The notes under the pieces: generated by a model
What the model was told of the DNA's origin: nothing
What the model saw: only the letters and a program-made list of their open reading frames with translations
Database searches by the model: none
In this document: in pieces, positions 1-64,000 of the stretch
How the letters are laid out: each line of letters begins with the position of its first letter
Position numbering within the stretch: the stretch's first letter is position 1
From: Amoebophrya sp. A120
Taxonomy: Eukaryota > Protista > Dinoflagellata
Assembly (NCBI GenBank): GCA_905178155.1
Contig: CAJINV010000002.1
Coordinates: 3,176,515 to 3,240,514 of the forward strand
Length of the DNA: 64,000 bases
Direction: 5' to 3'
Translations under genes and position numbers: made by a program

Positions 1-1933
1 TTTGCAGTTGATGCAAAACGCGTCGTCCGTGATGAACAGCAGATTACGGGAACAGCAGTTGTCGATTGATTTGCTGAGTGGGGACTATCACGAGATGGTG
101 AGATTGGACCAGGAGTTGAAAAATGTCGTCATGCTGTCCTCTTCGGGGAGTGCAGGCCAAGGCGGTTCCAGCAGCTCTTCTTCTGCCAACGTGAACACCA
201 ACATGCAGAATGAAGATCAGAAAGTGATCAAGGCGATTGGCAAATACCTGGAGCACCACATGCTTTTGCAGCAGCGGACGCAGAGCCGGGAGGTGAGCGG
301 GCGGGATGTTGTGTACGGAGGTGCTAGTACAACAACTGCTGGAAGAATAAATGCCGTCGGAGTAGGTGGTCAAGTCAGCAGCACCCCGGGTTTCACCCTT
401 CGAGACCTGCTGCATAGCAGTGAAGACGACATTAATCTCCAGGACCAAAACGAAAACTCAGCGGAAGACGATTTGAATCTCGCGAGCAGCATCGCGAGAC
501 TCGGTTATCCGAGTTCTGGTTCGATGTTGAACGCGAGTCCGAGTAGAGGGGAAAACCAAACTTCATCAGCGATGCGCACCTCCACCTCCTCCGACCAACG
601 GGAAAGATCCAGGAGACGGTCTAGTGGGGAGTTGGAGTTGCAACAACGGGAGACGACCGAGATGGCGATCTCGGATTTGAGCTTCGTCCCGCTGGTTCGA
701 ATCCCGCTGGAGAACGACTTGTTCCGCGTGGATGAGCGCGAACAGCATGCGACTGGTGTGGTAAACCAGCGGCAGGGGCAGGTGTATCAGCAGCAAGTGC
801 CTGGTACTACGCCGCAGCAACACGCTGGTCAAGTGTCGTCGCCATCGGTACAGGGAATTCAGCATCAGATTCAGCAGCAGCAGCAGCAACAAAGCCCGTC
901 GTCCTTTCAACAACAGCAGCAGCAATTTTACCAGCAGCAGCAGCAGCAGCCTTCAAACATTCCCAGCAACACAAACTACACTTCCGCAGCGGCGGCTTTG
1001 AACAACCAACTCCGGAACATCACCGCCATGGGAACCTCCCCGACTTCCGCGCAACCCCCACCCGGCTCCGCATCCTCGTCTTCCTCCGGGTCCGGGCCGG
1101 TTGGCACTTTTCAACACCCCGCGAGCCGAACGGTGCCACCTCCGAGTCCCGGGACAATGCGCGGGGGGTATTTTACGGGGATAACAGGACCGAGCGGAGC
1201 ACCAGGTGGCTCCATTCAGAGTCAGCAATTTTTCGCAAATAGCAATACCAATCAGCAGCAGCAAAATGTCGGTGGTTTCGGAGGGGTTGTTGCACCAGGA
1301 GGAGGAAATATTAACAATAGCTACACCGGAATCAATATCGGTAGTTCTGCACCGGCCCCGGGTCCTTCGTTCCGCTACCCGGGATTGAACCCACCGGCGA
1401 GTAATTTGTTGAACGGCAATGACTATCCTGTGCAAAAGTATCGTACTCGTAGTGATTGCTGCTATGCATAACAAATCTCCTTTTTATAGGTAAAACAGCA
1501 TTACAAATTTCAGTTGTAGTGCTAAGCAAATTTGTAATGCAATTGCTACTAGTACGATGCTTTTGCAAGGCATAATGACAATGACATTAATTACACGGTG
1601 AATCAGCGGCTCTTCTCCGCTACCTACGGAACGGGGATCCGAGCAGGCGTGCCGCCCGGAACAACAACTGGAGTACTAGCGGGGAATATTAATCCCCTCG
1701 CCGTGACGAGAACCAACGCCACTGTCGAGTCTCAGTCGTTGTCCCAACAGTCCGGAAGTAGTTTTGGAGCTTTAGGTGGTGGTGTCGGGGCGGGAAATGA
1801 ACAAGATTTTCAGGCGGATAGCCCGAGCAGGAGACTGTCCTTTGCCAACATCGCAGCCTCGCCGTCGAGGTTTGGGAATCCGAATCAACAATTGAATGGT
1901 GGTGGTGTTGGGGATCAGCAGCAGTGGCGATAG
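1..1933 (+). CDS. 3' part of a Q/S/G/N-rich low-complexity protein (5'-truncated); exons <1-1423 and 1580-1933
   Basis: ORFs 2..1471 and 1598..1933 share a frame. Removing element 1424-1574 plus DR ATGAC (156 nt) joins NGND|NDINYTVNQR. Confidence 0.8.
1424..1574. mobile_element. Introner family A (TAT-N4-TGCAAAAG TIR), 151 bp
   Basis: TIRs, DR ATGAC, excision restores frame. Confidence 0.9.
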
Positions 1934-3895: not shown

Positions 3896-5983
3896 ATGAA
3901 AACCAGCGCCGTGACAATCCGGAGCCAAGAAGCGGATCCGGAGAGCAAACCCACCTCCTCCACCTACAGCGGCATCGGTGTGGAGTACTTGCAGTTTGAC
4001 CTGGCCCGGCATCCTTTTGTAGACCTGTTCGCGAAGTTGTTACCGAAGAGGACGAACGACAGGCGACGAAGTGGTGATGCAGAGAACTACAAGCTGGATA
4101 ACGAATCATCAACGTCGGTTAACAATTCTCTCGAATACCTCCATCTCCGCGTCGATGATTTCCGGCCCGAGAACCGCGACGAGAATGCAAGACAAACAGT
4201 GCCTCCTTTTCTGGAACGAGCATTGCAAATCCTACCCCAGAAGGTCGTGGATCATGAACAAGCGACTCAGAGGACTCGCTCAGTAGACCTGCAGCAGCCC
4301 TTGCAGCCGCATGCGAAGGAGGTCTTCGACGTTGACGAGCCAGCAACCCCCTCCCCCACAAATTCATCCACGACGACCCCGAGTTCTACTACTACTTCTA
4401 CCCCTGCAGCTTCAACGACAGCAACAAATTCAAATCTCCCTACTTCCACGACCAAAAAACGACAAAAACAAGCCAACAAGAAGGCGAAGAACACGCTTCT
4501 GAAGCAGTGGAACCGCGACGAGAACTGGATAAACTTTCTCGCTGCGTACGATCATTTTGTGAAGGAGTTTGTCATTCCGGACCTGCAAGACAAATTTGGG
4601 CGTCAACATCGTGCGGATCTTTACGCATCTTCAGAAAAGACTACAAGACAAATCCTCGGCGTGTTCTACCAGGAGCAACCCGTGCTCCGCATCGTTTTTC
4701 CAAACAGCCAGGTCCCGCCCTCAAGACCACATAAAGATTTGGAGTACGGGCATTTTGAACAGGAGATCAACTACTGGCTCCCGATTTGTCAAAACGAATT
4801 GAACGGGAGAAACACGCTGTGGGTGGAGAGTGAGCCGGGTCTCGGGGATTACAAACCTTTTGTCACGGACAAATCTTCACGACAGCGGCGGAAAAACAAA
4901 AACTGTGATGCGGTTTCTAATGCTTCACAAGGAACCGTGATTCGCTTCGACGGCATGCACTTGCACCACTACGCGCATTTGGACATGAAGAACGACGAGG
5001 AGCGAGAAGAAGTGCCAGACCACCGTGTTTGTGACCCAGACCGTGTTGAAGAATCAGAACTAGAACCACTTCCAGCGATATCCAGAACCACTACGGCGTC
5101 GACAATAGCAACTGTGAAAGACGAGATTTCTGATTCCAATGTCGTGGGTAGAGACATTTCCTCTTCTCCTCTAGAACTACCAGCCACGTCGGTTCTTACA
5201 ACCAAAACCGGGCCTGCAAGCATCAGAGAAGAGAAGCTTACGCGCATCAGCTTCGATTTTCGTGTGTTGCCAGTTTTCAAGACGTCCATAACAACACCAA
5301 AAACTTCCGCTCCTGAAGATGAAGAAATAGAAATGCACAGGACCAGCAGCCCACTAAGTAGACTAAATGAAAGCGAGAAGCTTTACATACAGAAACAAGC
5401 GACAGACTTCAAACATTTGGTGGATTTGAACACGGATATTTTTCACAATTTTTCAACGAGTAGTATGGAGTTCTCAAACGTTACATTCTCAACTGTTAGA
5501 TGAATTTGTCATGCAAGACAACCTTAAGCCGCCAGATGATGAAGCTGCTTCGCATGACAAATCCCCGAGAGGCTAGACGGCATCTAAATCTGTGCCAAAT
5601 CTGTAATGCAGGAGCAGCAAGCTTGGCCGTTTGACTCTTGCCATTCTTGCATCACAAATAATGCATGTAACAGTTGAGAATGTAACAGTTGAGAACGCCA
5701 TAAGTAGCTCTGAGAAGTTCAACACAGCATTGGAAATGTTACTCTCTTATCCTGTGCAAAAGTATCGTACTCGTAGTAAGTGCATTTATGCATCACAAAT
5801 CTCTTTCTCAAGGCAAATCAGCATTACAAATTCCATTTGTAATGCTGAGGAAAGTTGTAATGCGATTTCTACTAGTACGATGCTTTTGCATTTCATATAC
5901 TCTCTGCAACCGCAAATCCGATGAGAAAACGTTTCCGGTTGGCAGAAAACCAACATGGACTTTTCAAATTCGTGTACGCATAA
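3896..5983 (+). CDS. StrG-like / 2OG-Fe(II) oxygenase-fold protein, 3 exons
   Basis: Motifs YQEQPVLRIVFP, HKDLEYGH, EINYWLP, NTLWVESEPG, FDGxHLHHY and TRISFDFRV. Two introners excise in frame to TAA at 5981-5983. Confidence 0.7.
5464..5702. mobile_element. Introner family B (TATGGnGTTCTCAA TIR), 239 bp
   Basis: TIRs, DR AGTAG, frame restored. Confidence 0.9.
5748..5897. mobile_element. Introner family A, 150 bp
   Basis: TIRs, 8-bp DR TACTCTCT, frame restored. Confidence 0.85.
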
Positions 5984-9185: not shown

Positions 9186-10650
9186 ATGTCTTTCGGCTGC
9201 TACCGTCCGGACGCGAACACGAACCTTGGCTGTCGGCCGACGGCCAGTTCGATGAGCTTGAAGGACACCAAGTTGTTCCAGCAGCGGGTGCACCGGGAAA
9301 CCAGAAATCCCATCACAGGAGAAGTCGTGAACTACAGCCGAGGGGCGAATGCTTCAAACGCCGGGGATCCGAGTTCCACAACGAGTAGTTCCTTCGCATC
9401 CAACATGACAAACTCCGCAAATCAGACGAAAAGCGACATTTTCCACCTGCGAGACACGGATAGTGAAAATAACAAGCAGGATGATTTTACCGGGGGGAAG
9501 AAGGTAGTTAAGAAGTTTGTTGCTGGGAAGTACTTAGTTGTCATGCACTTTCTACAATCGCGATTGAGTTTGTCATGCGAACCTTGACTTTAAGTAACCT
9601 ATTCGTCAAACACGAAAATTATACAGCAAATGCCGGAGCAGCGGTACCAGGGAAATTTGAACCCCAACCTTACCCTTCCGGGGAGCAGCAGCTCGCGTGG
9701 ATTCGCAGAAAACCCAAGCCGAATAGCCGAGGGGAACCTGATATGCATTGCAAAGGTATCGCACTCGTACCAGTTGCAACCATGCATGACGAATCGAAGT
9801 CTTGTCCTTAAGGTAAAACAGCATGACAGAGTCCAGTTCTCACACTGAGAAATATTTGTAATGCACTTACTTATATGTACGAGTGCGATACTTTTACAGA
9901 GAATACCTGACGGTGGGAAGCATGGTTCCGAGTTCGTTTGCGATCACGGGTATAACTACTTTTCAGCTGCTTCATGCATGAAACGCAAATGCTTGCTGTG
10001 CATATGATTTTGATTCTGCTAGGCATGAGCATGACAGACTTGATACGAGTCGCATCTCGATAGTAAAAGAAAAACAACCACACATCGACATCAGGCGAAC
10101 CGGGCATTTACCGCGACACTGACTCTTCCTCCAACGCGTTCACGCACCGCACGAAGGTCTCCTACGCCGGTGGGGAGTGCGGACAGTATTTGAAACCGCG
10201 GGACAAGCTCGGGCCCGGGTGTTTGCCCATTGGCACCAACGACGCCACCCTATCGCCGACGACGCGGTCGCCGAAGTCGCATTTTACCCGGAACAACCTG
10301 AACAACACGAGGTACAGCGGGAAAAACTTGGTGAAAGCGGCTACGACCAACATTCGGCCGACGGAGTTCGGAATGATGTATGCATTGCAAAAGTACCCCC
10401 GTGCTAGTACAAAACGCATCACAAATTTTCTCAAGAAGAAGAATGCAATTTGTCATGCGTACTCGGGTAGACGTAGAGAATCGGACTTGTCATGCATAGC
10501 CGCAATTACTACGAGTGCGATGCTTTTGCTCTGCATATGATGGCCGAGGCGCCGATTTTGCGGGAGCCGGACATGGACACGGTGGTGCACCATTTGCTGC
10601 AGGAGGTGCCAAGTGCGAAGTACTATGACGTGTTTAAGGGGGATTTGTGA
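9186..10650 (+). CDS. Hypothetical protein, ~5 exons
   Basis: GT-AG intron 9530-9594, introners 9742-9905 and 10379-10537, and one intron at ~9950-10070 whose ends I could not fix. Ends ...VFKGDL TGA. Confidence 0.6.
9742..9905. mobile_element. Introner family A, 164 bp
   Basis: TIRs, DR CCTGA. Confidence 0.85.
10379..10537. mobile_element. Introner family A, 159 bp
   Basis: TIRs, DR TGATG, frame restored. Confidence 0.85.
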
Positions 10651-32400: not shown

Positions 32401-32977
32401 TGCATAGGGCATTCTGATCTCGGTGGCTTGGTATACGAGTCGAGCTGCGGCCACCGCGAACAGGAACAATGTTGGCCACGGGCTTGGATACGTAGACGGT
32501 GGCCAGGCATACGGTGCCCAGAGCTGGAACGGCACCGGTTGGGGCGGCACCGACTGGTACGATGCCGACTTATCCTGTGTAAAAACGTCATCTTCACGAC
32601 CCAAGGGCTGTCGTGCAAGTTTGCCTACATGTTCACGAGCCACATATTAAGAGGCAGTCTTTCATGGTGTTTTGGAGTTTTTCATGCCCTTCTTTCTGCA
32701 GGGAAAGAAAAGTTGAGTATCGATTGCTGACGCGGCTGCGCGAGCAGCTGATCTCGCTTTGTGTTCTTGCAAACTCCCCATCTTGACCCTGGGGTCATGA
32801 CCTTGTTTTTACAGAGGATGAGACTGGCCTACTTACCAGTCGTACGGCCAGGGCAAGGACGGCTACGGCGAGAAGGGCAGTGGAAAGGCAAAGGGCGGCA
32901 AGAAGGGCGGCAAGAAAGGCGGCAAGAAGGGAGGTAAGCGTCCGCCCAGTGCTGGAGATCGAGATTATTTCTACTAA
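29405..32977 (+). CDS. Putative type I membrane/surface protein: signal peptide, Cys-rich N-terminus, Pro/Ser stalk, TM helix, GGKK-repeat tail
   Basis: Hydrophobic N-terminus and SPSPGP repeats. The TM segment VIAIAVVCGLG|ILISVAWY forms only after removing 31743-32406. Tail ends DRDYFY TAA. Introns between ~29790 and 30820 are not resolved. Confidence 0.6.
30336..30507 (+). repeat. Coding 42-bp tandem repeat x4 (SPSPGPENSPQPAP)
   Basis: Period 42 seen directly. Confidence 0.9.
30868..31623. mobile_element. 756-bp GC-rich insertion with TAGGTAGG motifs, flanked by a 48-bp direct repeat
   Basis: 30820-30867 matches 31624-31671 with one mismatch. Confidence 0.7.
31743..32406. mobile_element. 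Degenerate family C introner containing a nested family D element
   Basis: TATCAAATGCAAATGTGTCTGGGTC...GACACTTTTGCGATGCATA, DR GGGCA. Confidence 0.8.
31972..32277. mobile_element. Introner family D, 306 bp (nested)
   Basis: TIRs, DR AAGCA; body is the reverse complement of 16728-17033. Confidence 0.9.
32571..32820. mobile_element. Introner family E, 250 bp (ends ATG)
   Basis: Imperfect TIRs, DR CGACT/AGACT, frame restored. Confidence 0.75.
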
Positions 32978-49400: not shown

Positions 49401-52400
49401 TGGCAGCCTCATTTCATTCGTGTTTTCCCTATATAGTCTGCGCATCACAGGTTTTCGTTTCAATGTCGAGCAACTTTGTGATGCAGAAACTCCAATAAGT
49501 GTTTAACTGTAACACTTTTTTCCTGTGATATACGGATCAGAACGAAGACTATCAGCAGTTGAATACCGATCTCCTTTTCGACGAAGGGGCCGCTGGGAGT
49601 GGTAATTCTAATTTTTATCCGGAAGCAGCACCATCTACTTCCCGCACGGAGGACACAAAGAAACGAAATCAGAGGGAACATGTCAATCTGTCAGAAGGTC
49701 GTGGGAACAAGTATGGCGTTCTCAAACGTTACATTCTCAACTGTTACATGATTTGTCATGCAAAATGACCATGACCCGCCAGACGATGAAGCTGCTGCGC
49801 ATGACAAATTCTCGGAGGGCTAAACACCACTATAATCCGCACGAAACCTGTAATGCAAGACGCGCAAGGTTCTCCCTCTCATCTGTGCTAGTCTTGCATT
49901 ACAAATTTATGTAACAGTTGAGAATGTAACAGTTGAGAACGCCATAACAAGAACCCGGGGGCCAGACCAGCAGGGACAAGAAAAAGTCGTATATAACCTG
50001 CTCAGGTGTTACAATCTCAAACGTTACAATAGAATCTGAAATTTGTCTTGCATGACTAACATGACAGACTCGGACAGCGTTCCACTTTTTGCAATACAAA
50101 TTTCGCCAGATTGTAGTGCGGATTGGGACTCCAGAACTTGTCATGCGCAATCCTGTGGGAGTAGGGTAGATCATGCACGTCTTGCAACACAAATTCCAGA
50201 TTCTATTGTAACGTTTGAGATTGTAACACCTGAGCGGGTTATATCGTAGCAGTAGAAGTTCCAGGCCGTGGTACCTCCCCAGTACGCACTTGCATATCCT
50301 GTGCAAAAGTATCGTACTCGGATTGCAATCATGCATGCACCCAGATGAATTGTCGTATAAGATGAATTGTAACAAAATACGTATCTGCTATCCAGCGAAG
50401 CTTGCAGCGTATCGTATTACGCAGCAGAGAAAAGCGAAAGCGAACACCAGCCGAGCCAAATTCGACAAAAGCAAAAAAGCAACCCTTGCAACATATTTTC
50501 CCAAAAATGAATTGCAAAAAGCATCACCCCGCTGTTGTAAAAATCGATGCAATTCAGCGTGAAAAGACAAAGCAGCTCAGCTTGCCGCTTCTGTGATATA
50601 GCTGCGCTGCGAAATAGAATAAGACGAGCAAGCGGAAAAAAAATGCAGCAAAATAGCGACAGGAAAGCGAGCGCGATCTACTTCTATTGCCTCAGCTGCA
50701 GCTTCTGTGACAAAATTGACGCACTGAGAAACGCGATCAAAAAAACAATCGCTCTTTAGATTGTGAAAATGTAGGGAATGAGAACGAGAAAGCCAAAGCT
50801 AACATAGGGAAAACAAAAATACACAGAACGAGTCCCACATTAGCAAATAAAGCCTACAAAACTTAACTTGCACAAACACAAAACGCAGGGACGTATCAAA
50901 TTAGCAACGCGAGTTTTGTATGAGAACAAAACGAGCGAAGGAGAACTTGCAGGCGAAGTGCAGCGTCGGGGCAAGTTGGTGAAAGCGTTAGCCGTCAATC
51001 AACATGCGGGGTGCGCTGTACTTCGTACGGAAATGGAAACAGTTTGCAGAAACAGAAGACAGCAGAATAGTGTAAAAATTGCATGTAAAATTCAAGAAGA
51101 AGCGCATAGTGTACAAGTGGAGTGCAGCAACAGAGCGCGTTGGTCGAAGCGACAGCCTCAAATCAACTCGCGTCGTGCGCTGCGCTCCTAGTTTTAATAG
51201 TTATAGCTGATAACAGTTCAAGTCCGACACAAGAAGAGATACGAGAAAAGACGAGAAGAACGACTGATAAAAGTAGCACAACGCATGTTGTTTTTCACGA
51301 GAAATTACACATGCGAAAAAAAACAAAACGAGTAAAAGGAACGCAGCGCATCTTCTAGCGCAAGAAATAACAGGCCAAGAAGCTAAGCAAAAACGGAAAA
51401 CCGACGCCGCGGCGCTTTTCGCGTGCCCCCTCTTCAGGGCTCGGGATTCTTGAACGCAGACAGAGACCGGCGCCCCTCCGAGGCGGAGGACGTCGAGGCC
51501 ATGCGGTGCAGTTCCTGAAGCTCCGGCGGGGCGCGCGGCTCGATCGAAGTCGTGCGCCACGTTGCCGGCATGCGCAGAAACTGGCCGCCTTGAAAATTTC
51601 GCGTGAGCGCCAAAGGAATGAAAACGACGCAAGGGCACCGCTGAGCACGCCACCACGCCATTGGTGCAGCCTCATAAATTCGCCAAACGATGCTGACACC
51701 AGTAACGCCCTCAATGCGGATCCGAATTCCGCGCGTCGCCCCCTCGACACGGGTGACCGAACCCCGGATGTTCGTGGGAACTTGTTTCGGGCCGGCAGTT
51801 TCCAGCTCGGCGACGTCGACGTAGGCTTTCGTTTGCCCTTATGCACTGCAAAATCGCACTGGCGCAACGTAATTACGCAAGCAGCCAAATAAAAACAAAG
51901 AAAAATTAGAGACCAGCATGCTTCTGGGCGCATAAAGAGAAAAAAAGACACTGAGAAAAATGCGCAACCACATGCGCGCCAGCACGAGTGTTGCAGAGCT
52001 TAAGAGCGGAAGCGACCCCGAGCCAAAAACGCGATCCATTGCGGGGTCGACGGCGACGACCGCGGAAAGATCGTCGCCCGCAGCTGGAGGCGGTGGCCCA
52101 GCAATCGACGCCGTTTCTTGTTGGACTCGTGGCGGGACGTGATTCGGCGCGGCAGGCGGCGCGGTCTCGGTGGGAGGCGCAGGCGGCGCGACGACTTGCG
52201 TGAGGCCCGTGGGGCACCGCTTGAGGTCCTTCCAAGGAACATCGCGCAGAGTCGTTTCGCGTTTCTTGCCGGAGAGGACTCCGTCGCTGCGGACATCCAC
52301 CCCGAGCGCCTTCACCTGCGTAACGACGAAAGGCCCCAAGAATTTTGTTGCCAAGCCGGGGCTTTTCTGTCTGTTTCTGCACAAAACACGTTCCCCAATT

Positions 52401-55400
52401 TTCAGTTTTTTAATGTCCTTCAGCCTGCCCCCGTCCTCCCGATTTTCAAAGAAGCGGCTGCGATTGTGTAGCGCCTGTCTGGCCAGAGAGCCGCGCAACG
52501 TTGCGGCCGCAAAATCAGCAGCGCCATCACTCTCGCCACCCGCGGCCCCGGCGCCGTGTTTCCTTTCCTCGGAATTCTGCGGCGGGGGTCCAGCCAGTGG
52601 GGTGGCGGAGGCTGCGCTTGCGCTTTCTGCCGCGGCGCCCTTGTCTGCAACGATATGCGGAGGCGCACGCTGCACGGGATGCAGAGTGGCTTCGGTGATG
52701 TCCCGTAAGGGGCGGAGAAACGTGTTCAAATGCCTCGCAGCGGGAATCCGACGGCCCCGCGTCGCCCGTCGGTTCAGTGCCGCAACAGACGCAGGCAAAT
52801 GACGAGGCCAATCCTTTTCGCCCCCCCCTTTTACGCAGTTGCTGCTTCAACTGTCCATTGTAGGTTTGGTCGGAGCCGCCCCCGGCGTTTTGCTTGCTAA
52901 ATCGCGGCTATTTTTTTTCCCGAACAATGTGGAGAAGATTGCCGGCGCGGTGGTGAGGTGCCATCCCCTGGGCTCGGCGCGAAATCGCAAAGGCTTGGCG
53001 CCTGTCCGCCACGCCCTTGGCGCGCGGGCGCCGCGAGCCCATGCCGGGTCTGTGGCTTTGCGCGCTCCAGAGGGCCGCGCCCTCCCTGCGGCATGGCCCG
53101 TCCCTTGTGCCTTGCGCATTGGCAGGGCCGCCGGCCGGAGGCAGCGCGCCACCCCCTTTGTCCAGCCTATAGATTTGCTATTTTGCTTGCTATTTCCCCT
53201 GCTAAATCGCAAACGCGCAAAACCTGAGGCAAAACGCTGGGCCCGAGATTGTTGCCGACTTTGGCAGGAAATTTAGCCCGCGCCTTCGGCAAGGGATTTA
53301 GCAAGGAAAATAGCAAGGAAATTAGCAGGCGAATTAGCAAGCAAATTAGCACGCGAAATAGCAAGCAAAATAGCAAGCAAAATAGCACGCGAAATAGCAA
53401 GCGAAATAGCAAGCGAATTAGCAAGGGAGAACAAGTTCGCCCCGCGCTTAATCGGGGCCAAAAAAGGGGGGGCCCATTTGGCGAATTTTTGGGGGGTTTT
53501 TTGGGTGGGCAAATTCGAACACGGGAAAAAAAATAGCCGTCACTTAGCACGGCCCCCGCCGGGGCCGGCTCCGCCCAAGTAGGTTATCACCGAAAAATCC
53601 GCCCTCCCCATATTGCAAAAGGAATTTGCGTTGCTGATGCGTGGCCGCGAGTTGTAGTCCGTTGCAGAACACGCGCGAACACGAACCCAGCAACACGAAT
53701 GGTCTTCATAAATATGGGGGAGCGGCTTTTTCAGTTTCGTAGAACTTTCCGCGGCACCATTGGACTGCGGATGCGCGCGAGGGCTTTCGCGGATATCCGT
53801 GCGAAAGGCTGCGCCCGCCGGGGGGTCGTTGGTGAAGGTCGCGCACTTATGGTCGCGCGTCAAGCAGGTGCACTGGCTCCAGTTCTTTATCTGCTGCAGC
53901 TCTGTGCCCTTGTCAATGTTCAAATGATCCGGCGCGCCGTGTTCCTCGATCATATCCAGATGCGCTTGCTTGACTTGGTCGGAGCCGCCCCCGGCGTTTT
54001 GCTTGCTAAATCGCGGCTATTTTTTTTCCCGAACAATGTGGAGAAGATTGCCGGCGCGGTGGTGAGGTGCCATCCCCTGGGCTCGGCGCGAAATCGCAAA
54101 GGCTTGGCGCCTGTCCGCCACGCCCTTGGCGCGCGGGCGCCGCGAGCCCATGCCGGGTCTGTGGCTTTGCGCGCTCCAGAGGGCCGCGCCCTCCCTGCGG
54201 CATGGCCCGTCCCTTGTGCCTTGCGCATTGGCAGGGCCGCCGGCCGGAGGCAGCGCGCCACCCCCTTTGTCCAGCCTATAGATTTGCTATTTTGCTTGCT
54301 ATTTCCCCTGCTAAATCGCAAACGCGCAAAACCTGAGGCAAAACGCTGGGCCCGAGATTGTTGCCGACTTTGGCAGGAAATTTAGCCCGCGCCTTCGGCA
54401 AGGGATTTAGCAAGGAAAATAGCAAGGAAATTAGCAGGCGAATTAGCAAGCAAATTAGCACGCGAAATAGCAAGCAAAATAGCAAGCAAAATAGCACGCG
54501 AAATAGCAAGCGAAATAGCAAGCGAATTAGCAAGGGAGAACAAGTTCGCCCCGCGCTTAATCGGGGCCAAAAAAGGGGGGGCCCATTTGGCGAATTTTTG
54601 GGGGGTTTTTTGGGTGGGCAAATTCGAACACGGGAAAAAAAATAGCCGTCACTTAGCACGGCCCCCGCCGGGGCCGGCTCCGCCCAACTTGACCTCTTCC
54701 GCCTCGAAGCTCGTCAGCAGTTTGGAACAAACGGCGCCAGTCGTGAGGCAGCACATGTTCAAACAACCGACGAAGCGCGTGCCGACATTTTTGCCGCGGT
54801 GCGCCGAGTTTTCGCAGGGGGTGCAAACTATGCAGTCGACGCCTGCCCAGGCAAAAGGCCGAAGGGACTCATTGGCGGGGTCCTTGAGCGCCGCCAAAGT
54901 ACTGCTTGCGTAAGAATCCTGCTGCTGCGGCGCATGTTCTTCGTTGGCCGCGCAAGCCTCGCACGCTTGCACCGCAACCCGCGCGCTTTCTTTCAAGCCG
55001 CACCACGTGAAGCCAAGCTGCTGGATGGCCACCCCAGTTGCCTCAATTCCCCCATGCGACCGCAAATGCCCAAGGGCCGCAATGCGCTGCTTTTCCGCGT
55101 CGTCGTCGGCGCCGATGACGGTAAGCCAATCCGGATACACCATCAGCGCTTCGGTGGTTTTGCGTCCGTAACCCTGGAACTCTGCGCGGACCTGCAGCTT
55201 GCCCATGCCCGGGGCCAAGCGGAAAAAGTTTTTCTTTGTTTTCCACCACTTCCGCTGCCGCGCGGTAAGTCCCAACGCTTTGGAAGCCGCCCCAATGTCA
55301 GCAGCCCGCAGCAAGAATTCAATCGCGCCATCGGGCAAAGAAAAATTTTTGCCGGCGTTGGACTTTCGCCCGCGCTTTCGTGGGGGGGGCGCGCACTCGC

Positions 55401-58400
55401 TCGCATCCGAAGCAGCCTCCCCATCGCTTTCGCTCAAGTCGCTCAAGCTAACAACGCTCGAAACCGACGGCGCCGGCGCATCTGCTTCCGCTGCACGTTT
55501 GCGAGAGGCCAAGCCAACCGCCACAGGTTCGCCCTCTTGCGTTTCCAAAACCGTTTCGGCCTTCGTTTCGGGGGGCGGGGCAAAGGAAGTCCCCGTCGCT
55601 TCCGCTTTCGGCTGAGCGCCGCGCCTGACAAAGGCGTTGTAGTGGCGGCCATCGTACTCGAGTCGGATCGCCTTCGCGCCGCTTCCGATTTTCTGCGGCT
55701 GCTCTTGAGAACCGGGGGCGGGTTCGATCTGAATCGACAACACTATGCAAAAGAAAAAGCAAACCAGCCCACTACACATCAGAGACAAGAAAGGCACGGG
55801 CCGCAAATTTTCGCAAAACGCGCGCCGCATCCCGCGCAAAAACGACAGCGCGCGGCGTGCCGCTCGGCTCTTTTAGGTGCGGGCGGGCTCATTTTTTCGG
55901 GTAGGGTCCATGACTTTCGCCACAGCCTCCAAAAATGCGTGGCCCAGCCATACCGTTGCCGCGGGGTGCAGAAGTTTTCCCAACCAGGCCAGCCACTTGC
56001 TCTGCTCTGCTAAAACCGCGGGGCCCGCCGGCTCGTCCACTCCGTACTCCCCCACCCAAAACGGACCAAGCTCTTCGCGCTTGTCCGCCATGAAACCCTC
56101 CACCAACTGCTTCACCTTCGGCATGCTGATGCCTGTGGCCGCCGCAATCGAAAGAGGGCAACAATTGCCGTTCCCCTCGATCTTTTGCAAAACATCGGTC
56201 GAAGCCGCACCACAATCGCTGAAAAAACGGAGCCCCCCCCGATATCGTTTCGGGCTTCTGTCATGCTGATCTCCTGAATTTCCCGGGATTTTCGTGGAAA
56301 ATCCTGGGAAACCAGCGAAAGCGCAACCAAGTCCGCGCATTAGCTGAAACAACAACGGGGGGGGCGCCTGTGTTCACGGCCTTAAGCTTCCCCCGGAGCG
56401 GCCGCAGCAGGGGCCTCCGCCGGTTTCTCGCCGCGGATCCACTCGACCCGGCACAGCCACTTGCCCCGTCCCGGCTTGGGGTTGCGGCTGCCGGGGAGCC
56501 TCCCGACTTGGCTCGGCTTGTTGGCGTGCCTGTCCCCCCCTAAAAGGGGGACCATCACCGTGCGGAAATCTTTTTCCGCTGTCGCGCCGCCGGGGACCTG
56601 AGACCACGCCTGCCAGCAGGCCGCCGAAGTGCGGGTCACCAACTGGCAGCGGTGGTCTTCCTTCGCCCTTTCCACCACCCCCGGCGCAGCGTTGTCCAGG
56701 TCGACCAAAAAATATCAAACACGCAAAGCCCCCGCAAAACAGCGCCGCGCTACGGGCGCGCGCGCGAGGTATTGCCCGACGGCTGGGCAGGAAATTGAGC
56801 GACCGCCCAATCCCCCCGGCTCTTCTGTCATGGTGCTTGGCCGCGGCCAATCAAGCAAGCGGCGCCCCTTTCCCCTTGTACGGGCGGCAAGCTAGAAGGA
56901 AAACGCGAACCCGCAACGCCCCCCATGCTACTAAAAGCGCGCGCACGAGGCGGGGGGCGGCGCTGCCCTATCTAGCCAAGGAACGGCCCCGGCGCTGCGC
57001 CACACTGGGCGCGCGCCTTGCAACTCGGGTCGCCTCGCTCGGCCGCCGGCCGGCCAAAGAAATTTTCTCACCAACCGGCGAAAACCTGCGCCGCGACCTT
57101 GGCCGGGGCCTAGGGTTTAGAATCTCCACCGGGCGCCCGCGGCTTTGCAGAAAAACGCCGCAACTCCATTGCGCGCAATGCTTGCGCGCCGTTGCGAAGG
57201 CTTTGCGCGTGCACATGCGTAAAATCCAGTCGGAGCCCATCGGGCGAAAGAAATAATGAAAATCCTTCCCGAGCGCGTTGGGCCGCCACGCCTTCGGGTC
57301 CGCTCGCTGCTCCATGCTGGCGACGCCTGAAAAACAGGAAAGATGAGTGTTGCTATTTGACATGTGAAAAAGGAAACCTCACTACGCGGAAAACGACTGA
57401 AGCGCCCTGCTTCCCCTCCCTTACTATAAGAAAGCGGAAGCGAAAATCTATCGCAACACCCAAGCGAAAAAGAATACCTCCCCCACCACGCAGCGGGTCC
57501 TTGGCCTGTGTCAGGATCAACTTCCGGAGGGCCCCGACCGGCAACAACTTCGTGACCCGTGACCTATCCCCGAAAAAAATGCTGTCCACACAAAGCTGGC
57601 GGCCTCACTGCATACAAGAGCGAAAACGCGAACCGGCAAAACAAAAAAAAAATCCGTTGCCCATCGGCGGGGCAAATGCAAAAAGCCACCACGAGGCCCC
57701 GCCGCCTTCCATGCGCCTGGGGAGTCCATTTTTTTGGGGGATAGGTCATGTCTGCGACAAGGAAGTGCCGCCGCATCCAGATCGTTCGTCACCAACCCTT
57801 CCCCCGTGTACCGGTAACCCGGAAACGCCGACGGCATCGGGGGGGGCGGGGGGGGCAGGTTGTGCAGGCCCGGGCCACCGGCCGTGCGGCCCGCGGGCGG
57901 ATCGATGTTGCGCCCGGACGCTTTGCCGCTCGCCTTCGAATTGTCCCCGCAATCGGAGTCGCTCGCCACAGAAGCCGGGCCCGCGTCGAGCTGCCCGTTG
58001 GTGGGGGCCTGGGTTCCGTCCGGAGCCGGGGCAGCGGGGGCCGGGTCCTGCAGCCAAGAAACGCCCAAGACACTGCCCGGGCCACTGTGCGGAAATGCCG
58101 CCATTAGGCCGGCATCCCGCGTCTTTGTGGCGACATTCGCGGCAAAATCTTTCTGCTCGGGGCTGATGGGCTGCGCCCCTTCCATCGCCATCGCCAACAT
58201 CCCGCCAAGCATGCTGCGCCATAATGGGAAAAAGTGCGCCCAATCAAATCACGGGCGGGGGCCCTTGTATCATAAAAAACAGCCCAAAGCGCCAGGCGCT
58301 GCCTGGCCTGGGCGCCGCAAAAGGCGGAGCCCTTAGCGGGCGGAAACCCTGCAAAGCCTGGGATTTGTCATGCCTAAAAAGCTGCCCGCGCCCTGCAATT

Positions 58401-61400
58401 GCAGGGGCTTGGTTTTTTTTCGTATTTTTTCCTTGGCGCTGAGGCCCTTCCCGAGCGTCTCCAAGCGCTTGAAATTCGCCCACAGCTTCGCCACCTTCAT
58501 ACGAGTGAGCCGCAGGCGGTCGCGCTGCTTGTCCGAGTAAGCGCCCGGGTCACTCATGTCGACCCACCCCGCGGGAGTCAGGCGAGGGGGAAAATTGCCC
58601 GAGTCCCCGAAGCAGAAGTCGGAATCCTGCAAGTCCAGCAAGCCAGCGACCGCCAAGGCCTTGGCCCGGTCGTAATCGCCGGCCACCGAAACGATTTCCA
58701 TGGCCATGGTGTTTGTTGTTTTCTTTCGATTTGCAAGGCGAAACCGAAAAAATGCGAGAAGAAGAAAAACGCGAAGCAACGACAAAGATAAAGAAGCCAG
58801 AAGCGTCGCAAGCTAGTGCGTAGCTGGTGTTTTTTTGCTTAGTAGTCGAGAGGTTTTTTTTTGTGGTTAGTGTGCTCGTTTTTCGTCCGAGGTAGACAAG
58901 TTGTTTTTTTTTGGGTAGCGTGTTCTTTTTTTCGTCTGAACAAGACAAACTGAAGTTGGGCACTGTAAGGGTAATGAAGATGAAACAAGAAAAAAGTAAT
59001 ATAAGCATGAGCCAACACAAAGTCATCATATGCCTATCACGTGACTGCTCACATGATAATCATATGATTTTGCACCCCCATAAGTAAGCCATTTTGAGTT
59101 GTTTCGCTCACATGATAGTCATGTGATTATCATGTGAGGCCCGACGCTCGACAGCGAAAGTATTTTTCCAATTATATGACGCAACGCCCGTCATACGTAC
59201 GAAAGGAAGCGTAAAAACGTGAACGAAACACAACGAAAACAACGAAAGAACGAAAACCGATCGTATACACAATACGACGACAACTCAGATTGCATCCCGT
59301 AAGGCCATGAAAAAAAGTGAAAAAGACAACTCAGCACGAAGCAATTCAGATTACTGCATGCATTACAAGTCTTCTTTTTAAGGTAAATGCGCATTACAAA
59401 TGTTATTCCTCATGCTAAGGAAATTTGTAATGCATTTATACGAGTGCGATTATACTTTTGCAGTTCATATTGCAGTGGCTCGCAGACAAAGCAGAAGACA
59501 TCTTCGCACAGGAACATGAAATCGCTGATAGAACTTCTGCAATACAAATTGCAAATGGAAATGCTTCTGGACCTCCACGACGGGGTGCCCCACCTGAGCA
59601 GGAATTTCTCTCCTACTACGAAAACCACTGGCATAACTCCTCCTCCTCCTCTTACAACTATCCGGAGAGCGTTCTGTTGGAAAGAATATCAACTGCAAAA
59701 ATGTCTGGGTCTGGAAGAGGCGGAGCTTGTCATGCACATTTTGCATGACCCGTGAGGTCTGTTATGCTGGTGCTAGCGTCACTGATTTTTTCAGAGCTTC
59801 TTGATGCTAATTACGCATGAGAAATGCCATCATCTCCGCGTGCCGCGAACTGACTCCTCTTGCTGCAGCTCATGCAACACAGATATTTTCAGAATCCGCA
59901 GACAGCATTACAAGTTCCACTCTTCCAGACCCGGACATATTTGCAATCCATAAAGAAAACCCTACGTTTTGTTCGCGCCGAGGTGTGGGTTCTGCAAAAA
60001 ATTCATGTGCAACCCAGAGATCATTGATGCGGTGAACGTGAACGTGAATCAAGAGCAACAGCAAGGACAAGGTTGCTCCGCCGTAGAAGACGAAGATGAA
60101 GAAGTACTATTCCCTTTCGTGGCGAAAAGCGACGAGTTTTTAGCGGATATAATGCCCAGGATCAGCGAACACGAAGGACTAGGCGAGAGGGAAGATGAAC
60201 AGAAGGAGCAGGAGGAGTCCTCAAGCGCAACCAACCTTGCACCGGAACCTCCAACAGTTGACGTACAACCACAACAACCTGCAGCACCTGCACCGCCCAC
60301 CCCTCGTGCCTGCAGCAAAACGTGTATTGAGACCAACGGTAAATGTCAGGACTTGGAGTGTATCAAATGCAAAAATGTCTGGGTCTGGAAGAGTTGTGTT
60401 TGTAGACTTGTCATGCAGATTGTCCATGACCCATGAGGTCTGGAATGCGAGCCTTAGCATGACAGACTCTGCGACGAGGTCTCTGCCATGCCTATCCTGC
60501 ATGAGAAACTCCCTTCCTTTTTTGTTCCTCCAGCGTGGAGCGGCAGCACCATCGTGGTTTTTTTTTCTCCCCGCGACGCGATCACTGGATCCCGGTAGCG
60601 CTAGATCCCTTTCCGCAGGCGCTCCTAAAGTGGGCCTTTTTACCGGTGCCGGCGCACTAAAAAAGAACCCCGAGACGGGGAAAAACAGAACCACGAAGGA
60701 GAAGACGGAGGTGGGGCACAGAAGAAAAGCGGAGTGGGGCACTAGGGAAAAAGAAGAGAAGAAAAGACGAGCGGGGGGGGAAGGGGCTAAAGAGCAAAAA
60801 AAGAGCTGCAACTGTCTGGGAGTTTGCATGTCGAAGTCGTTCGGACTAGGTTTATTACCAAAGTGGCGCCAGGGTTGTTATTTTAAAGATTGCGCTAAGG
60901 CAGCACCCCCCTTCCCCAAGGGGCCCCCCGGGGCGGGCGCGGTGGCGGCTCTGCTAACGCGGAGCTCCAAAGTCCGACTCTACCTATGCGCATAAAAAGG
61001 GTGCGCGGAAGCAGGTCGGTAAGGTGCTTGAAAGGGGCATGCTTTGGGGTTGCCCGCCATCGTGATAGGGTCAACGTGTGTGACCAATAGGCCCCCAGTA
61101 TATCATAGCGCGCAACCGACCACAAAAGCAGAAGAGTTTAAAGTTTGTAAGAATAACCCAGCAAGGCAACACTGGAGCTCCACCTTGCTCGCGGGCTTGG
61201 ATGGTAAATCAGGTCAGCCACATCTAACGCCCACTGGCCGTATACACGCGTAAGAAATCGGAAACGGTTCAGCGGATGCGGTCGGGTGGTACCTGTAGGA
61301 CGTGGAACGGGTGTCCACCTAGGGGTATTGGCAGAGGCTAAATCTGTTCTAACGCCACGGTATTGGCAGAGGCTAAATCTGTTCTAACGCCACCCTGACA

Positions 61401-64000
61401 GGAGTCAAAGGTCAAAACGATACGATGCGATAACTTGGTCCAAAGTGTACAGCTTTTGGCACTCATGCAACACAGATTTTTGCATGCTTCAGATTTACCA
61501 TGCAACCTTCCAGACCACCCAGACACGTTTGCAATGCATAGAGTGTAACGGGGTGGACATGGACGATTTGCCAAATCGGACAGAATATGCAGCGCAAAAG
61601 CATCGTACTCGTAGTAATTGCAATCATGCATTGCAAATCTCTCTCTTAAGCCAAATCAGCATTGCAAATTTCATTTTTCATGCTGAGGAAATTTGTAATG
61701 CATTTATACGAGTAAGTACTACGATACTTCTGCAATGCATACAGAACTCCTCTCTTTCGAAATCGAAAGGGTGCATCCCGCGACCTTGACTGCGGAAGGA
61801 GCAGAGGAAGTTTGTGAAGATGCAGGAGATGAAGCAGGAGAAGCTGCAAGAAAGGAAAAGCAAAACGAATCGTTTCGCACGGCGAGGACCATGACCCGCA
61901 CGGAGCGCATCCACTACGTGCTGGTTTGGCCGCACAGGAACAGGAACTCCGCTTTCGGCCTGAAAGCTACGTCAAACTCTTTTCATTCCAGTTTTACCTC
62001 TACCAGCACAGGAGGCATGGAAATAGCGAGTCCAAGAACAGACGACGATGAAGAAGGAGACCAACCAGAAGAGAAATACAGCAAGCAAAAACAATCTGAA
62101 TACCCACTGACCCTCTTTCTCCCGGGCACGGGCAACATTAACTGGCAGGTCCCTGGCTGTCCCTGGTCCGGCGGGTTCGAGCTGTTGACGAATAAGAACA
62201 AGCTCTTCAACAGCTTCTACATCATGCCCTTAATAGAGGACTACCGGTTGGAATCGGATATGGCGTTCTCAACTGTTACATCCTCAAGTGTTGCGATTGA
62301 TTTGTGATGCAAGAGTGGAAAAAGTGAACGGGTTTACCTTGCGCGTCTTGCATGACAGATTTGGCACAGATTGTCAGCCTGCTTGGCGGCCCTCTGAGAA
62401 TTTGCCATGCGAAGCAGCTTGCTGGTGTCGGTTCTGAACGTAATTTTGCATGACAAATCACGCAACAGGAACAGCTGAGAATGTAACATTTGAGAACGCC
62501 ATATCGGATATGGTTTACATCGAGGACTCCTACGGACACTATCGGTACTATGAATTGCAACAGCAATATCGTACTAGTACTAGAACTTTGCAATCACGCA
62601 TTACAAATCTTTTTCTCAAGGGAAATCAGCATTACAAATTTTATTTCTCATGCTGAGGAAATCGAAATTTGTAATGCATTTATACGAGTGCGATACTTTT
62701 GCAATCCATAGGTACTGCGAGAAGACGATTGAACTGCTATTGAAACACGCTGTGCAGCATATCGAGGCGAATGCAGTATCCCGAGCAATAAAAGCATCGC
62801 GATTGCACTCGTATAGAACAAGATCGCAGTCGTGCATGACGAATCTCCCTCCTTTAGGTGAATCAGCATGACAAATTCATCCACTTTCCGACTTGAAAAA
62901 AATTGTAAATATATGCATTTTAGAGGTAGTCGTGCCATGCTTTAGCTTTTGCGATGCATCCGCCGCAATCAACTACAACTGTTACCTCGACTATGAGAAA
63001 TTCTACCTAACTGGCATCTCCATGGGCGGCACTGGGTGCTGGCAAATTCTGGCGCACTGCGGGAAATATTTCGCCGCTTGTGTTCCGATAGTTGGGAACC
63101 CGGATTGGGGCGTGACTGGGAAACGGATGGACTTGAACTTTGGGGTATACGGATTGACGGTAGGGTACAACGAGGAGGATTTTCTTGATCCGGCGGAAGT
63201 AGACACAGCGCGGACGGGAATAGCTGTTGCACCTACTTCGAGTGGTGTTGTTGATGGTGCTAATATTGCGACAGGTGGCGCAACAGGAGTCGAGCCTGCA
63301 ATTGTGCTGGCACAGCATCCCCATAATAAACCGGAGCCCGACCCCTTCGGATTCGATGCAGAATCCCTTCCAGACGACGACGCAGACCCAGAAGTTGCGA
63401 AAATCGTGGAGAAATTGCGGAGTAGAAGTTCCTCAAAGTGCACTAACATCTCCTGCGTCGACGAGCTTGAAACAGATTGTCATGCCGACACGCATGGTGC
63501 AGCTCCCTCCGATTGTCTTGACCACAACGCATCGGAACGGAACTGGTCCAATTTGGTCGGGAAATTGGTGGCGTCATTTTCCTCCAGTGCGACAGCATCT
63601 GAGGCAGCAGTTTCAGGGACAAGTTCTTCTTCAACTTCTACGAGAAGCAAGAACTTGTTCACGACGAGCAGCGGCAGCGTCACAACGACTTCCCTCAGCG
63701 GCCCGATCTCGATTTTCGAGCAAACTTTGGCGGCACTAGCGGAGATCTTCCTCAGTCGGCTGTTGCAAGGGACAGGACGAGGACGACGAGGACCGCGTTC
63801 ATCCGGGGACCAATCAGCATCTTCGGAGGACGATCATGTGGGCGGAGATTCTTCACGGCCGCAGTCTACAGATGCGCACGTCGCAACCTCCGTGGCAGTA
63901 GCTCCGGGCGAGAATCATGAAGAGAGCACGGGACGAGGACGACCTCCAAACGACCCGAACAACAAACACTCGAACAGCAATTCTGCGCTCCTCTCCTGCT
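46465..64000 (+). CDS. Large protein with an alpha/beta-hydrolase (predicted esterase/peptidase) domain; 15 introners; runs off the window
   Basis: The frame is preserved across all 15 excisions, including the 9.2-kb one. Motifs YPLTLFLPGTG and DYEKFYLTGISMGGTGCWQILAHCGKYFAACVPIVG (GxSxG elbow, ~62990-63100). The start codon is tentative. Confidence 0.7.
46511..46773. mobile_element. Introner family C, 263 bp
   Basis: TIRs, DR AAAGA. Confidence 0.9.
46833..47076. mobile_element. Introner family C, 244 bp
   Basis: TIRs, DR CAGCA. Confidence 0.9.
48140..48291. mobile_element. Introner family A, 152 bp
   Basis: TIRs, DR CCTCT. Confidence 0.9.
48514..48665. mobile_element. Introner family A, 152 bp
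   Basis: TIRs, DR CCTGA/CCGGA. Confidence 0.85.
48984..49101. mobile_element. Small singleton introner, 118 bp
   Basis: TATCCGCAAAAAAAAACC...GGTTTTTTTTTCTGTGGATA; a 4-nt DR CCTT/CCAT is needed to restore the frame. Confidence 0.7.
49316..49530. mobile_element. Singleton introner, 215 bp
   Basis: AAAAAAGTGTTACAGTTA/TAACTGTAACACTTTTTT TIR, DR TACGG. Confidence 0.9.
49712..49946. mobile_element. Introner family B, 235 bp
   Basis: TIRs, DR ACAAG. Confidence 0.9.
49992..50243. mobile_element. Singleton introner (B-related), 252 bp, ~50-bp TIR
   Basis: TATAACCTGCTCAGGTGTTACAATCTCAAACGTTACAATAGAATC TIR, DR TCGTA. Confidence 0.9.
52866..53578. mobile_element. 713-bp TIR element (MITE), copy 1
   Basis: TTGGTCGGAGCCG...CGGCTCCGCCCAA, 6-bp TSD GTAGGT, internal AATAGCAAGC repeats. 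Confidence 0.9.
53975..54687. mobile_element. 713-bp TIR element (MITE), copy 2
   Basis: Apparently identical to copy 1, 6-bp TSD CTTGAC; removal joins EEVK|QAHLDMIEEHG in frame. Confidence 0.9.
55620..56200 (-). CDS. OTU-like cysteine protease segment of the transposon (two exons)
   Basis: KIEGNGNCCPLSIA (Cys motif), W.GH..LEAVA, IRLEYDGRHYNAF (His motif). Confidence 0.6.
56382..56720 (-). CDS. RepB'-type (archaeo-eukaryotic primase-like) segment of the transposon
   Basis: VDLD...LVTRTS..CWQAW...LGGD......VGRLPGSRNPKPG resembles RepB DNA-primase motifs. Confidence 0.6.
59687..59952. mobile_element. Introner family C, 266 bp
   Basis: TIRs, DR AAGAA. Confidence 0.9.
60361..61540. mobile_element. 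Introner family C expanded to 1180 bp by an insert (~60518-61432)
   Basis: Two halves of family C, DR GAGTG, frame restored. Confidence 0.85.
61586..61741. mobile_element. Introner family A, 156 bp
   Basis: TIRs, DR CAGAA. Confidence 0.9.
62259..62503. mobile_element. Introner family B, 245 bp (inverted relative to the other B copies)
   Basis: TIRs, DR TCGGA. Confidence 0.9.
62549..62710. mobile_element. Introner family A, 162 bp
   Basis: TIRs, DR GGTAC. Confidence 0.9.
62777..62960. mobile_element. Highly degenerate introner family A, 184 bp (ends ATC)
   Basis: DR TGCAG/CGCCG; excision joins EANA|AINYN into the hydrolase frame. Confidence 0.65.

What the first reader, a model, noticed from the sequence alone, without database searches (positions are those of the whole stretch)
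1424..62960. A shared internal motif, TTGT(A/C/G)ATGC / GCAT(T/G/C)ACAA, marks nearly all intron-like sequences
Seen: this 9-mer occurs several times, in both orientations, inside families A-F and most singletons, whose other internal sequence is unrelated. It also lies in GT-AG or unresolved introns (twice in 9530-9594, ~10030, ~16174, ~30181) and in presumed introns of the 9-kb transposon (~56258, ~58364). It appears sparse in long exons (exceptions near 26290, 41408 and 63477). Inference: it may be a binding site for a splicing factor, chromatin protein or transposase, or form pairing arms that fold the intron, which would make it a general intron-definition signal in this lineage.
Basis: partly seen in the sequence, partly recalled or inferred. 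Interest (0 to 1): 0.75.

Follow-up and report, generated by a model that had tools for sequence, protein, structure and literature searches.

The report
Spaced docking motif in jumping introns
A nine-letter DNA word recurs at fixed spacings inside nearly all the jumping introns of this marine parasite (likely Amoebophrya), and likely serves as a docking site for a still unidentified protein that copies them around the genome.

Summary
The motif is real: 124 exact copies against about 2 expected; 114 lie in 54 short elements with TAT-N7-AAA inverted ends and 5-bp duplications. These match the published introners of Amoebophrya A120, and RNA-type contigs skip them. In about 640 kb of another record set, 386 of 409 elements and all 15 families carry it.

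New here is the geometry: same-orientation pairs 30-33 bp apart in 14 of 15 families, often with an inverted copy midway, and the first inward site 31-33, 39-43 or 51-54 bp from the end. A site is equally conserved whichever strand is transcribed, and partner copies do not covary. This points to a protein site on double-stranded DNA rather than RNA pairing arms.

A general intron signal is only partly supported: 6 of 33 predicted GT-AG introns hold it, the ~30181 case is a decayed introner, and one skipped element has no site. Enrichment in GT-AG introns, slower decay in old copies and a weak sense-strand bias keep a host splicing role open.

Best reading: a subterminal binding array for the unknown mobilising protein (0.5); host intron marker (0.3).

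The parts
1424..62956 (.). Span holding 54 TAT-ended inverted-repeat introners with 114 of the 124 exact motif copies; their host genes read on +
1424..1574 (.). Family A introner
5464..5702 (.). Family B introner
5748..5897 (.). Family A introner, 4 exact sites
9504..9626 (+). Predicted GT-AG intron without family homology; exact sites at 9538 and 9570, 32 apart; not RNA-validated
9742..9905 (.). Family A introner
9950..10094 (+). Predicted GT-AG intron; one-mismatch site at 10029; not RNA-validated
10379..10537 (.). Family A introner
16130..16286 (+). Candidate GT-AG intron read by eye; exact reverse site at 16174; not RNA-validated
16386..16649 (.). Family C introner, no exact site, 4 profile sites; skipped in RNA-type contigs
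16728..17033 (.). Family D introner; skipped
17463..17706 (.). Family B introner, 4 exact sites
17864..18257 (.). Singleton element, perfect 20-nt inverted ends, 5-bp duplication, no exact site (one profile site at 18174)
18349..18669 (.). Family 6 introner
18818..18967 (.). Family A introner
19020..19220 (.). Family 2 introner, sites in one orientation
19282..19431 (.). Family A introner; skipped
19992..20142 (.). Family A introner in the opposite orientation to 19282; skipped
20242..20394 (.). Family A introner; skipped
21681..21889 (.). Family 2 introner, sites in one orientation; skipped
23593..23883 (.). Family 3 introner, 5 profile sites all in one orientation; skipped
24044..24944 (.). 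Family A introner with ~730-bp insertion; skipped whole
25028..25180 (.). Family A introner; skipped
25602..25751 (.). Family A introner; skipped
25820..26124 (.). Family D introner (variant ends); skipped
26382..26571 (.). Decayed family A copy, no exact site, 2 profile sites; skipped
26847..26991 (.). Family A introner; skipped
30051..30290 (+). Skipped CT..AG segment, a decayed family 13 introner (not among the 54); exact site at 30182
31743..32406 (.). Family C-type element with a nested family D element
31972..32277 (.). Family D introner nested in 31743-32406
32571..32820 (.). Decayed family 3 copy without any profile site; skipped in one contig, partly unskipped in another
35438..35594 (.). 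Family A introner
36815..37069 (.). Family C introner
37244..37531 (.). Family 3 introner
37596..37740 (.). Family A introner
37777..40228 (.). Family A introner carrying a 2.3-kb GC-rich satellite insertion without profile sites
40367..40628 (.). Family C introner
40694..40845 (.). Family A introner
41408..41416 (-). Exact site inside an open reading frame (exonic exception)
41519..42019 (.). Family C introner with insertion
42069..42218 (.). Family A introner; sites at 42111, 42142 (31 on), 42158 (16 on, inverted) and 42176
43616..43808 (.). Family A introner, diverged
43891..44065 (.). Family A introner, diverged
44330..44494 (.). Family A introner
44539..44795 (.). Family C introner; sites at 44580, 44611 and 44644 (31 and 33 apart) and 44752
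46511..46773 (.). Family C introner
46833..47076 (.). Family C introner, short-end variant (first site at +32)
48140..48291 (.). Family A introner, 4 exact sites
48514..48665 (.). Family A introner
48984..49101 (.). Family 8 introner
49316..49530 (.). Family 2 introner
49712..49946 (.). Family B introner
49992..50243 (.). Family 14 introner (related to B)
50295..59469 (.). Family A introner interrupted, next to a motif copy, by a 9-kb integrase-coding element with ends of its own; sites at 56258 (one mismatch) and 58365 lie in that cargo
59687..59952 (.). Family C introner
60361..61540 (.). Family C introner with ~0.9-kb insertion
61586..61741 (.). Family A introner
62259..62503 (.). Family B introner
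62549..62710 (.). Family A introner
62777..62956 (.). Decayed family A-like copy
63477..63485 (+). Exact site inside an open reading frame (exonic exception)

Best explanation
The motif is a regularly spaced internal array shared by all introner families examined, and is likely a binding site on double-stranded DNA for a still unidentified protein (a transposase or its host cofactor) that would assemble on the element ends to move them. Shown: the array (direct pairs 30-33 bp apart, often with an inverted copy midway; first inward site 31-33, 39-43 or 51-54 bp from the end), conservation independent of the transcribed strand, and removal of the elements in RNA-type contigs. Inferred: that a protein reads it, that the spacing reflects protein packing and DNA helical turns, and that the selection acts mainly at transposition. 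The family-specific inverted ends would then supply the hairpin that joins the splice boundaries, as the A120 paper proposes (untested).
For: Exact site in 386 of 409 elements found by their ends, not by the motif, and in all 15 family consensuses. 22 direct pairs at 30-33 bp in 14 of 15 families (null mean 3.3, maximum 10 of 3000); 14 inverted neighbours at 15-17 bp in 8 families (null mean 4.6, maximum 13). ~16.25-bp lattice, coherence 0.43 against null maxima 0.31 and 0.38. Distance from end to first inward site clusters on a 10-11-bp ladder in 12 families (R 0.77-0.88 at 10.5, p 0.003 or less). The same site is equally conserved read forward or reverse in the transcript (42 sites, p 0.67; 9.7% vs 10.8% mismatch), and equally in coding-flanked and non-coding-flanked copies (3.7% of 4523 vs 3.3% of 1044). 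Family A lies both ways in genes (60:59) and both ways are skipped. T is excluded from the middle position although pairing would allow it (16 of 1326). Spaced internal site arrays are how Tn7 TnsB and Hermes recognise their ends (passages).
Against: No cognate transposase was found: no TAT-ended element with a convincing reading frame in ~700 kb, and the window's integrase element has other ends; PMC7789003 reports none in A120. The motif is enriched in predicted GT-AG introns without inverted ends. In 55 old copies (duplication 3 of 5 or worse) it decays less than equally invariant columns (excess difference 4.0 points, interval 1.3-6.6), which transposition-only selection does not predict; the interval spans zero for 106 copies with 4 of 5 and for 24 with a lost end. 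Weak excess of the forward reading on the sense strand (94:62, p 0.013; 144:114, p 0.07). First sites of the opposite orientation are not phased (family A: 33-34, 38, 42) and the family C step is 7-9, not 10.5. Some families share ancestry, so they are not fully independent. No binding was measured.
Confidence: 0.5

Rival explanations
1. A host factor reads the motif (on DNA/chromatin or on nascent RNA) to mark introns for a spliceosome that reportedly lacks U1; introners carry arrays of it in both orientations because well-marked copies are tolerated.
For: Exact in 6 of 33 predicted GT-AG introns (8 hits vs 0.5); the top enriched 6-mers of these introns are pieces of the motif (25 vs 5.9 expected); relaxed core 13 of 33 vs 9% intergenic and 4% exon windows, p 2e-5; one 7-mer piece is 10 sense to 2 antisense there; a 32-bp pair recurs in two such introns (window 9504, L012); slower decay in old copies; weak sense bias; U1 not detected in A120 (PMC7789003).
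Against: 20 of 33 predicted GT-AG introns lack the relaxed core; they are unvalidated and may be old introners, as the ~30181 case proved to be; element 32571-32820 has no site yet is skipped (one contig); no strand difference in site decay and no relaxation in non-coding-flanked copies; fixed distance to both ends.
Confidence: 0.3
2. The array is a relic of one ancestral element, inherited by all families and no longer read by anything.
For: Families 5, 13, 14, 3 and 2, 9 still share sequence outside the motif; spacers between paired sites are more alike than shuffled (0.42 vs 0.36).
Against: Motif columns are more conserved than other interior columns in all 13 families aligned; families 0, 1, 8, 10 and 11 find no other family with motifs neutralised; site number, order and orientation differ while spacing holds; the spacer likeness comes largely from the midway inverted copy.
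Confidence: 0.08
3. Forward and reverse copies pair in the pre-mRNA (long arms, or 9-bp hairpins with 7-nt loops) and fold the intron for removal.
For: Where an opposite copy exists, folding predicts pairing to it with probability about 0.3-0.7 in most families; symmetric families extend their end stem through the terminal site.
Against: The middle base does not covary between outermost partners (observed vs expected 0.57/0.57, 0.26/0.41, 0.35/0.38, 0.05/0.12) or in most neighbours; families 2, 3 and 8 have no opposite exact partner and members of 2 and 3 are skipped; pairing does not explain one fixed sequence or the excluded T.
Confidence: 0.06
4. The motif is a branch-point signal readable on both strands (shared RTNAY core) near each end.
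For: A site lies 31-54 nt from both ends in most families; both readings contain TNAY (sequence; branch-site consensus recalled).
Against: Several internal copies at strict spacing are not expected; the A of the core is replaced by T in 18% of weighted sites; most information lies outside the shared core.
Confidence: 0.04
5. The V-A-T-G core is an adenine-methylation (VATB) target that marks these stretches.
For: T exclusion before AT matches the VATB context reported for AMT1-type methylation (PMC12695648 passages); CATG is 4.5-fold over expectation in elements.
Against: T is also excluded in the variant without ApT (0 of 167); methylase preference would not fix nine letters or spacing; no methylation data.
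Confidence: 0.02

Closest known systems
Introner elements of Amoebophrya sp. A120 (Farhat et al. 2021, PMC7789003; Gozashti et al. 2025, PMC12130899)
   Same: Inverted ends starting TAT, seven variable letters, then AAA; short direct repeats; non-GT-AG boundaries; many families of ~150-320 nt; removed from transcripts; no transposase inside.
   Different: The sections and passages read describe only end motifs; no shared internal motif or spacing rule. Figures were not visible.
Subterminal repeat arrays of DNA transposons (Hermes/hAT BED sites, PMC10368747; Tn7 TnsB sites, PMC9308760)
   Same: Several short internal sites near the ends, both orientations (Hermes), defined spacing (Tn7 left end: sites separated by 42 and 31 bp), needed for end recognition.
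   Different: Here one site is shared by families with different inverted ends, fills the whole element, and no cognate protein is known; the duplication is 5 bp, not the 8 bp recalled for hAT.
Nonconventional introns of euglenids (review PMC11282704, passages)
   Same: Non-canonical boundaries, inverted ends, duplication-like repeats, probable MITE origin.
   Different: Conservation there is reported as end structure; no internal fixed-spacing motif is mentioned in the passages read.

Membership tests
Amoebophrya A120-type introner | Inverted ends beginning TAT-N7-AAA | tested here: met
   some families (B, D, 13, 14) keep TAT but not the AAA run.
Amoebophrya A120-type introner | 3-5-nt direct repeat at the boundaries | tested here: met
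   Exact duplication of 5 bp or more at 38 of 54 window elements; 377 of 562 aligned copies 5 of 5.
Amoebophrya A120-type introner | Removed from transcripts at non-canonical boundaries | tested here: met
   13 of 15 joints shown and 2 of 2 skip elements; none of these 15 can be read GT-AG. Runs are RNA by guess, one sample; empty-site DNA is not formally excluded.
Amoebophrya A120-type introner | Repeated families across the genome | tested here: met
   13 multi-copy families among 462 elements, two more.
Amoebophrya A120-type introner | Source genome is A120 itself | tested here: inconclusive
   End motif, sizes and GC (51.5% vs 51.2%) fit; no genome is held, no direct match made.
Transposase subterminal binding array | Multiple internal copies at defined spacing near the ends | tested here: met
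Transposase subterminal binding array | Autonomous partner with the same ends and sites | tested here: inconclusive
   None in ~700 kb; that is under 1% of a 115-Mb genome.
Transposase subterminal binding array | Bound by transposase and needed for transposition | not testable with these tools
   Needs biochemistry.
Transposase subterminal binding array | Neutral decay after insertion | tested here: inconclusive
   Slower decay in 55 oldest copies, no clear effect in 106 and 24 others.
General intron-definition signal | Present in most canonical introns | tested here: not met
   Exact 6 of 33, relaxed 13 of 33 predicted GT-AG introns; predictions unvalidated.
General intron-definition signal | Enriched in canonical introns over background | tested here: met
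   8 hits vs 0.5 shuffled; 39% vs 9% of intergenic windows.
General intron-definition signal | Strand-specific, as an RNA element | tested here: inconclusive
   No decay difference; weak orientation bias.
Structured RNA element | Compensatory covariation between arms | tested here: not met
   no Rfam match in the window.

The most novel reading that the evidence does not exclude
One host protein reads this spaced array on DNA and does two jobs: it licenses many sequence-divergent introner families to move, and it marks introns, canonical ones included, for a U1-less spliceosome. That would be intron definition written on DNA.
Probability: 0.2. Interest if true: 0.9.

Novelty: new variant of a known kind. 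Interest (0 to 1): 0.6.

Why it matters
How Amoebophrya removes tens of thousands of non-canonical introns without a detected U1, and what moves them without a known transposase, are open questions in PMC7789003. A short site with a strict spacing rule, shared by all families examined, gives a defined bait and defined mutants for finding that protein, and a way to detect decayed introners. If it also marks canonical introns, it would be a new route of intron recognition.

Tried and rejected
No whole genome is held, so genome-wide counts rest on 140 de-duplicated sequences (window plus L001-L148, 701 kb), selected by a family A end pattern and so rich in family A.

Motif as a degenerate copy of the inverted end: profile score 10 or more at the end in 16%, 10% and 40% of families 0, 1 and 7 and 0% of the other 12; rejected as general. 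Adenine-methylation context: rejected. A plain 10.5-bp period over all site pairs: not seen (coherence 0.01; -0.05 for same-orientation pairs outside 30-33). First decay test with neutralised alignments misaligned motif columns and was discarded; one search has selection bias and is superseded.

Viral collection: 120 hits to a motif pair, none with inverted ends; the five richest are coding repeats. Raw RNA runs X9 and X10 laid almost only on element sequence and say nothing on splicing. One search left most of 27700-36700 uncovered, so no GT-AG intron was validated; 17 of 32 joints were not shown. Rfam: 0 matches. Earlier findings: three look-ups, nothing. Pfam on six frames of the 9-kb element: only zf-H2C2 and Integrase_H2C2, both below cut-off, in 1 of 6. 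No binding or structure prediction was run, as no candidate protein exists.

Full report
OBSERVATION. The 9-mer occurs 124 times against 1.97 in shuffles. I delimited 54 elements by eye and script. They hold 114 exact copies in 11.6 kb; large insertions inside them hold 4 in 13.0 kb; the other 39.4 kb hold 6; 50 of 54 elements have one. F below means TTGTVATGC as written, R its reverse complement.

WHAT THE CARRIERS ARE. The elements start TAT, mostly followed by seven variable letters and AAA, end in the reverse complement, and are flanked by 5-bp duplications. PMC7789003 describes this end motif for introners of Amoebophrya A120. Window GC is 51.5% against 51.2% for A120 (table). The organism is therefore inferred, not matched. 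Contigs of runs X3 and X4 (RNA by guess, one sample) skip 13 window elements among the 15 joints shown of 32, mostly with one duplication copy; two more are skipped. None of the 15 can be read as GT-AG. The joined form in DNA runs was not given, but one 5,215-nt contig skipping many elements in a row fits mRNA.

MORE DATA. A scan with a family A end pattern returned loci L001-L148 from record set JACKZZ01; they share families with the window but do not overlap it. An end-and-duplication search, blind to the motif, found 409 elements (0 in shuffled sequence), 386 with an exact copy, and 75 more under relaxed rules (2 in shuffled). They form 15 multi-copy families, all with the motif. Motif columns are more conserved than other interior columns in all 13 families first aligned. 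A family-weighted profile gives roughly a-a-A-T-(T/c)-T-G-T-V-(A/t)-T-G-C; it hits 519 of 528 elements (partly circular, as it was trained on them). With motif columns neutralised, some families still match each other (5-13-14, 3-13, 2-9), while 0, 1, 8, 10 and 11 find none.

GEOMETRY. Same-orientation pairs 30-33 bp apart occur 22 times in 14 of 15 consensuses (null mean 3.3, maximum 10). Inverted neighbours at 15-17 bp occur 14 times in 8 families (null mean 4.6, maximum 13). The spacer of a pair often holds a degenerate inverted copy midway, giving an F-R-F module. All pair distances fit a ~16.25-bp lattice. Where the first site reads inward as F, its distance from the end is 31-33, 39-43 or 51-54 bp in 12 families (p 0.003 or less). 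Against over-reading: first sites in the R orientation are not phased, the two family C end types differ by 7-9 bp, and there is no general 10.5-bp period.

DNA OR RNA. Strand was called from codon usage for 296 copies (253 of 258 agree within loci). A given site is as conserved read F as read R (42 sites, p 0.67), and copies with non-coding flanks keep it as well as exonic ones. Family A lies 60:59 in the two orientations. The free middle base does not covary between most inverted partners, and families 2, 3 and 8 have exact sites in one orientation only, yet members of 2 and 3 are skipped. T is excluded from the middle even in the variant without ApT. These points favour protein read-out on double-stranded DNA. 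One result points the other way: families with unequal F and R counts place the F-rich side on the sense strand 94:62 (p 0.013), or 144:114 with propagated strands (p 0.07).

CANONICAL INTRONS. A motif-blind gene parse predicted 80 GT-AG introns. 36 passed filters for flanks, length and absence of element homology; I dropped 3 as visibly decayed elements, leaving 33. Exact copies occur in 6 of 33 (8 hits, 0.5 shuffled), profile hits in 12, and their most enriched 6-mers are pieces of the motif. A relaxed core is in 13 of 33, against 3.8 shuffled, 9% of 356 intergenic and 4% of 815 exon windows. Outside elements the C variant dominates (47 of 61). So the enrichment is real, but most of these introns lack the site and none is RNA-validated. 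Element 32571-32820 has no profile site and is skipped in one contig, while another runs into it; this is weak evidence that the site is dispensable for removal.

DECAY. Using the duplication as an age marker and invariant columns defined on held-out copies, substitution rates rise from 3.0% to 4.8% in motif columns, 3.1% to 8.9% in subterminal and 7.9% to 13.3% in inner columns for 55 copies with 3 of 5 or fewer matches (difference 4.0 points, interval 1.3-6.6). For 106 copies with 4 of 5 and 24 with a lost end the interval spans zero. Old subfamilies that kept the motif while still active could mimic this, so selection after insertion is suggested, not shown.

MECHANISM. Most likely (0.5) the array is where a mobilising protein packs onto the element, at a set distance from the cut site, as spaced internal sites do in Tn7 and Hermes. 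The protein is unknown. The window's 9-kb insertion encodes an H2C2 integrase-like protein but has other ends and few sites, and no autonomous TAT-ended element was found. The main rival (0.3) is a host intron marker; the two are not exclusive.

LITERATURE SEEN. PMC7789003: abstract, passages, sections 11, 12 and 16 whole, and 4 supplement passages, with no hit for motif letters in the supplement text; figures, including the end-motif logos, were not visible and could bear on novelty. PMC12130899: passages, and supplement rows 1-21 of 58 for A120, mostly classed as inverted-repeat DNA elements of unknown superfamily; files 13 and 14 not searched. Passages only: PMC9860276, PMC11282704, PMC12005148, PMC10368747, PMC9308760, PMC12695648. 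Nine searches listed no paper on an internal motif in these introners. Roy et al. 2023 (Curr Biol) was seen only in reference lists.

VERDICT. Known elements, with an internal array not found in the papers read. Interest 0.6.

Noticed in passing
window elements and L001-L148: Insertions inside introners are mostly 3 nt (316) or 6 nt (139), against 83, 67 and 38 for 2, 4 and 5 nt; the window alone shows 23 and 13 against 5, 4 and 0. A triplet bias in spliced-out DNA suggests a mutational process or frame selection on retained introns.
   Followed up: no
window 50336-59355: 9-kb element on the minus strand with an H2C2 integrase-like frame and a stretch resembling an OTU protease (recalled, no Pfam hit); repeated short words at its ends; Ginger-like by recall only.
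   Followed up: partly
window 52862-53579 and 53977-54688: Two near-identical ~715-bp inverted-repeat elements without TAT ends or motif interrupt the integrase-like frame; a possible second kind of introner; splicing untested.
   Followed up: no
window 37872-40176: GC-rich tandem array of ~60-70-bp units inserted in a family A introner.
   Followed up: no
window 25820-25933: About 500 reads of run X9, from another locus or strain, match this family D end at 90-95% and carry an adapter-like tail at 25933, as if a transcript began inside the element.
   Followed up: no
window 17864-18257: Element with perfect 20-nt inverted ends, a 5-bp duplication and unrelated interior; removal leaves an open frame across the site; no exact motif.
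   Followed up: partly
window 19432-19948: One X4 contig differs at 30 of 517 letters while other pieces are identical: a second allele, paralogue or strain.
   Followed up: no
element ends, positions 4-10: Left and right ends of one copy often differ here and agree no more than random pairs in families A and C (0.59 vs 0.59; 0.68 vs 0.67).
   Followed up: partly
window 2280-3200, 7300-8700, 10900-11700: GC-rich (61-67%) stretches precede genes and lack exact motif copies.
   Followed up: no
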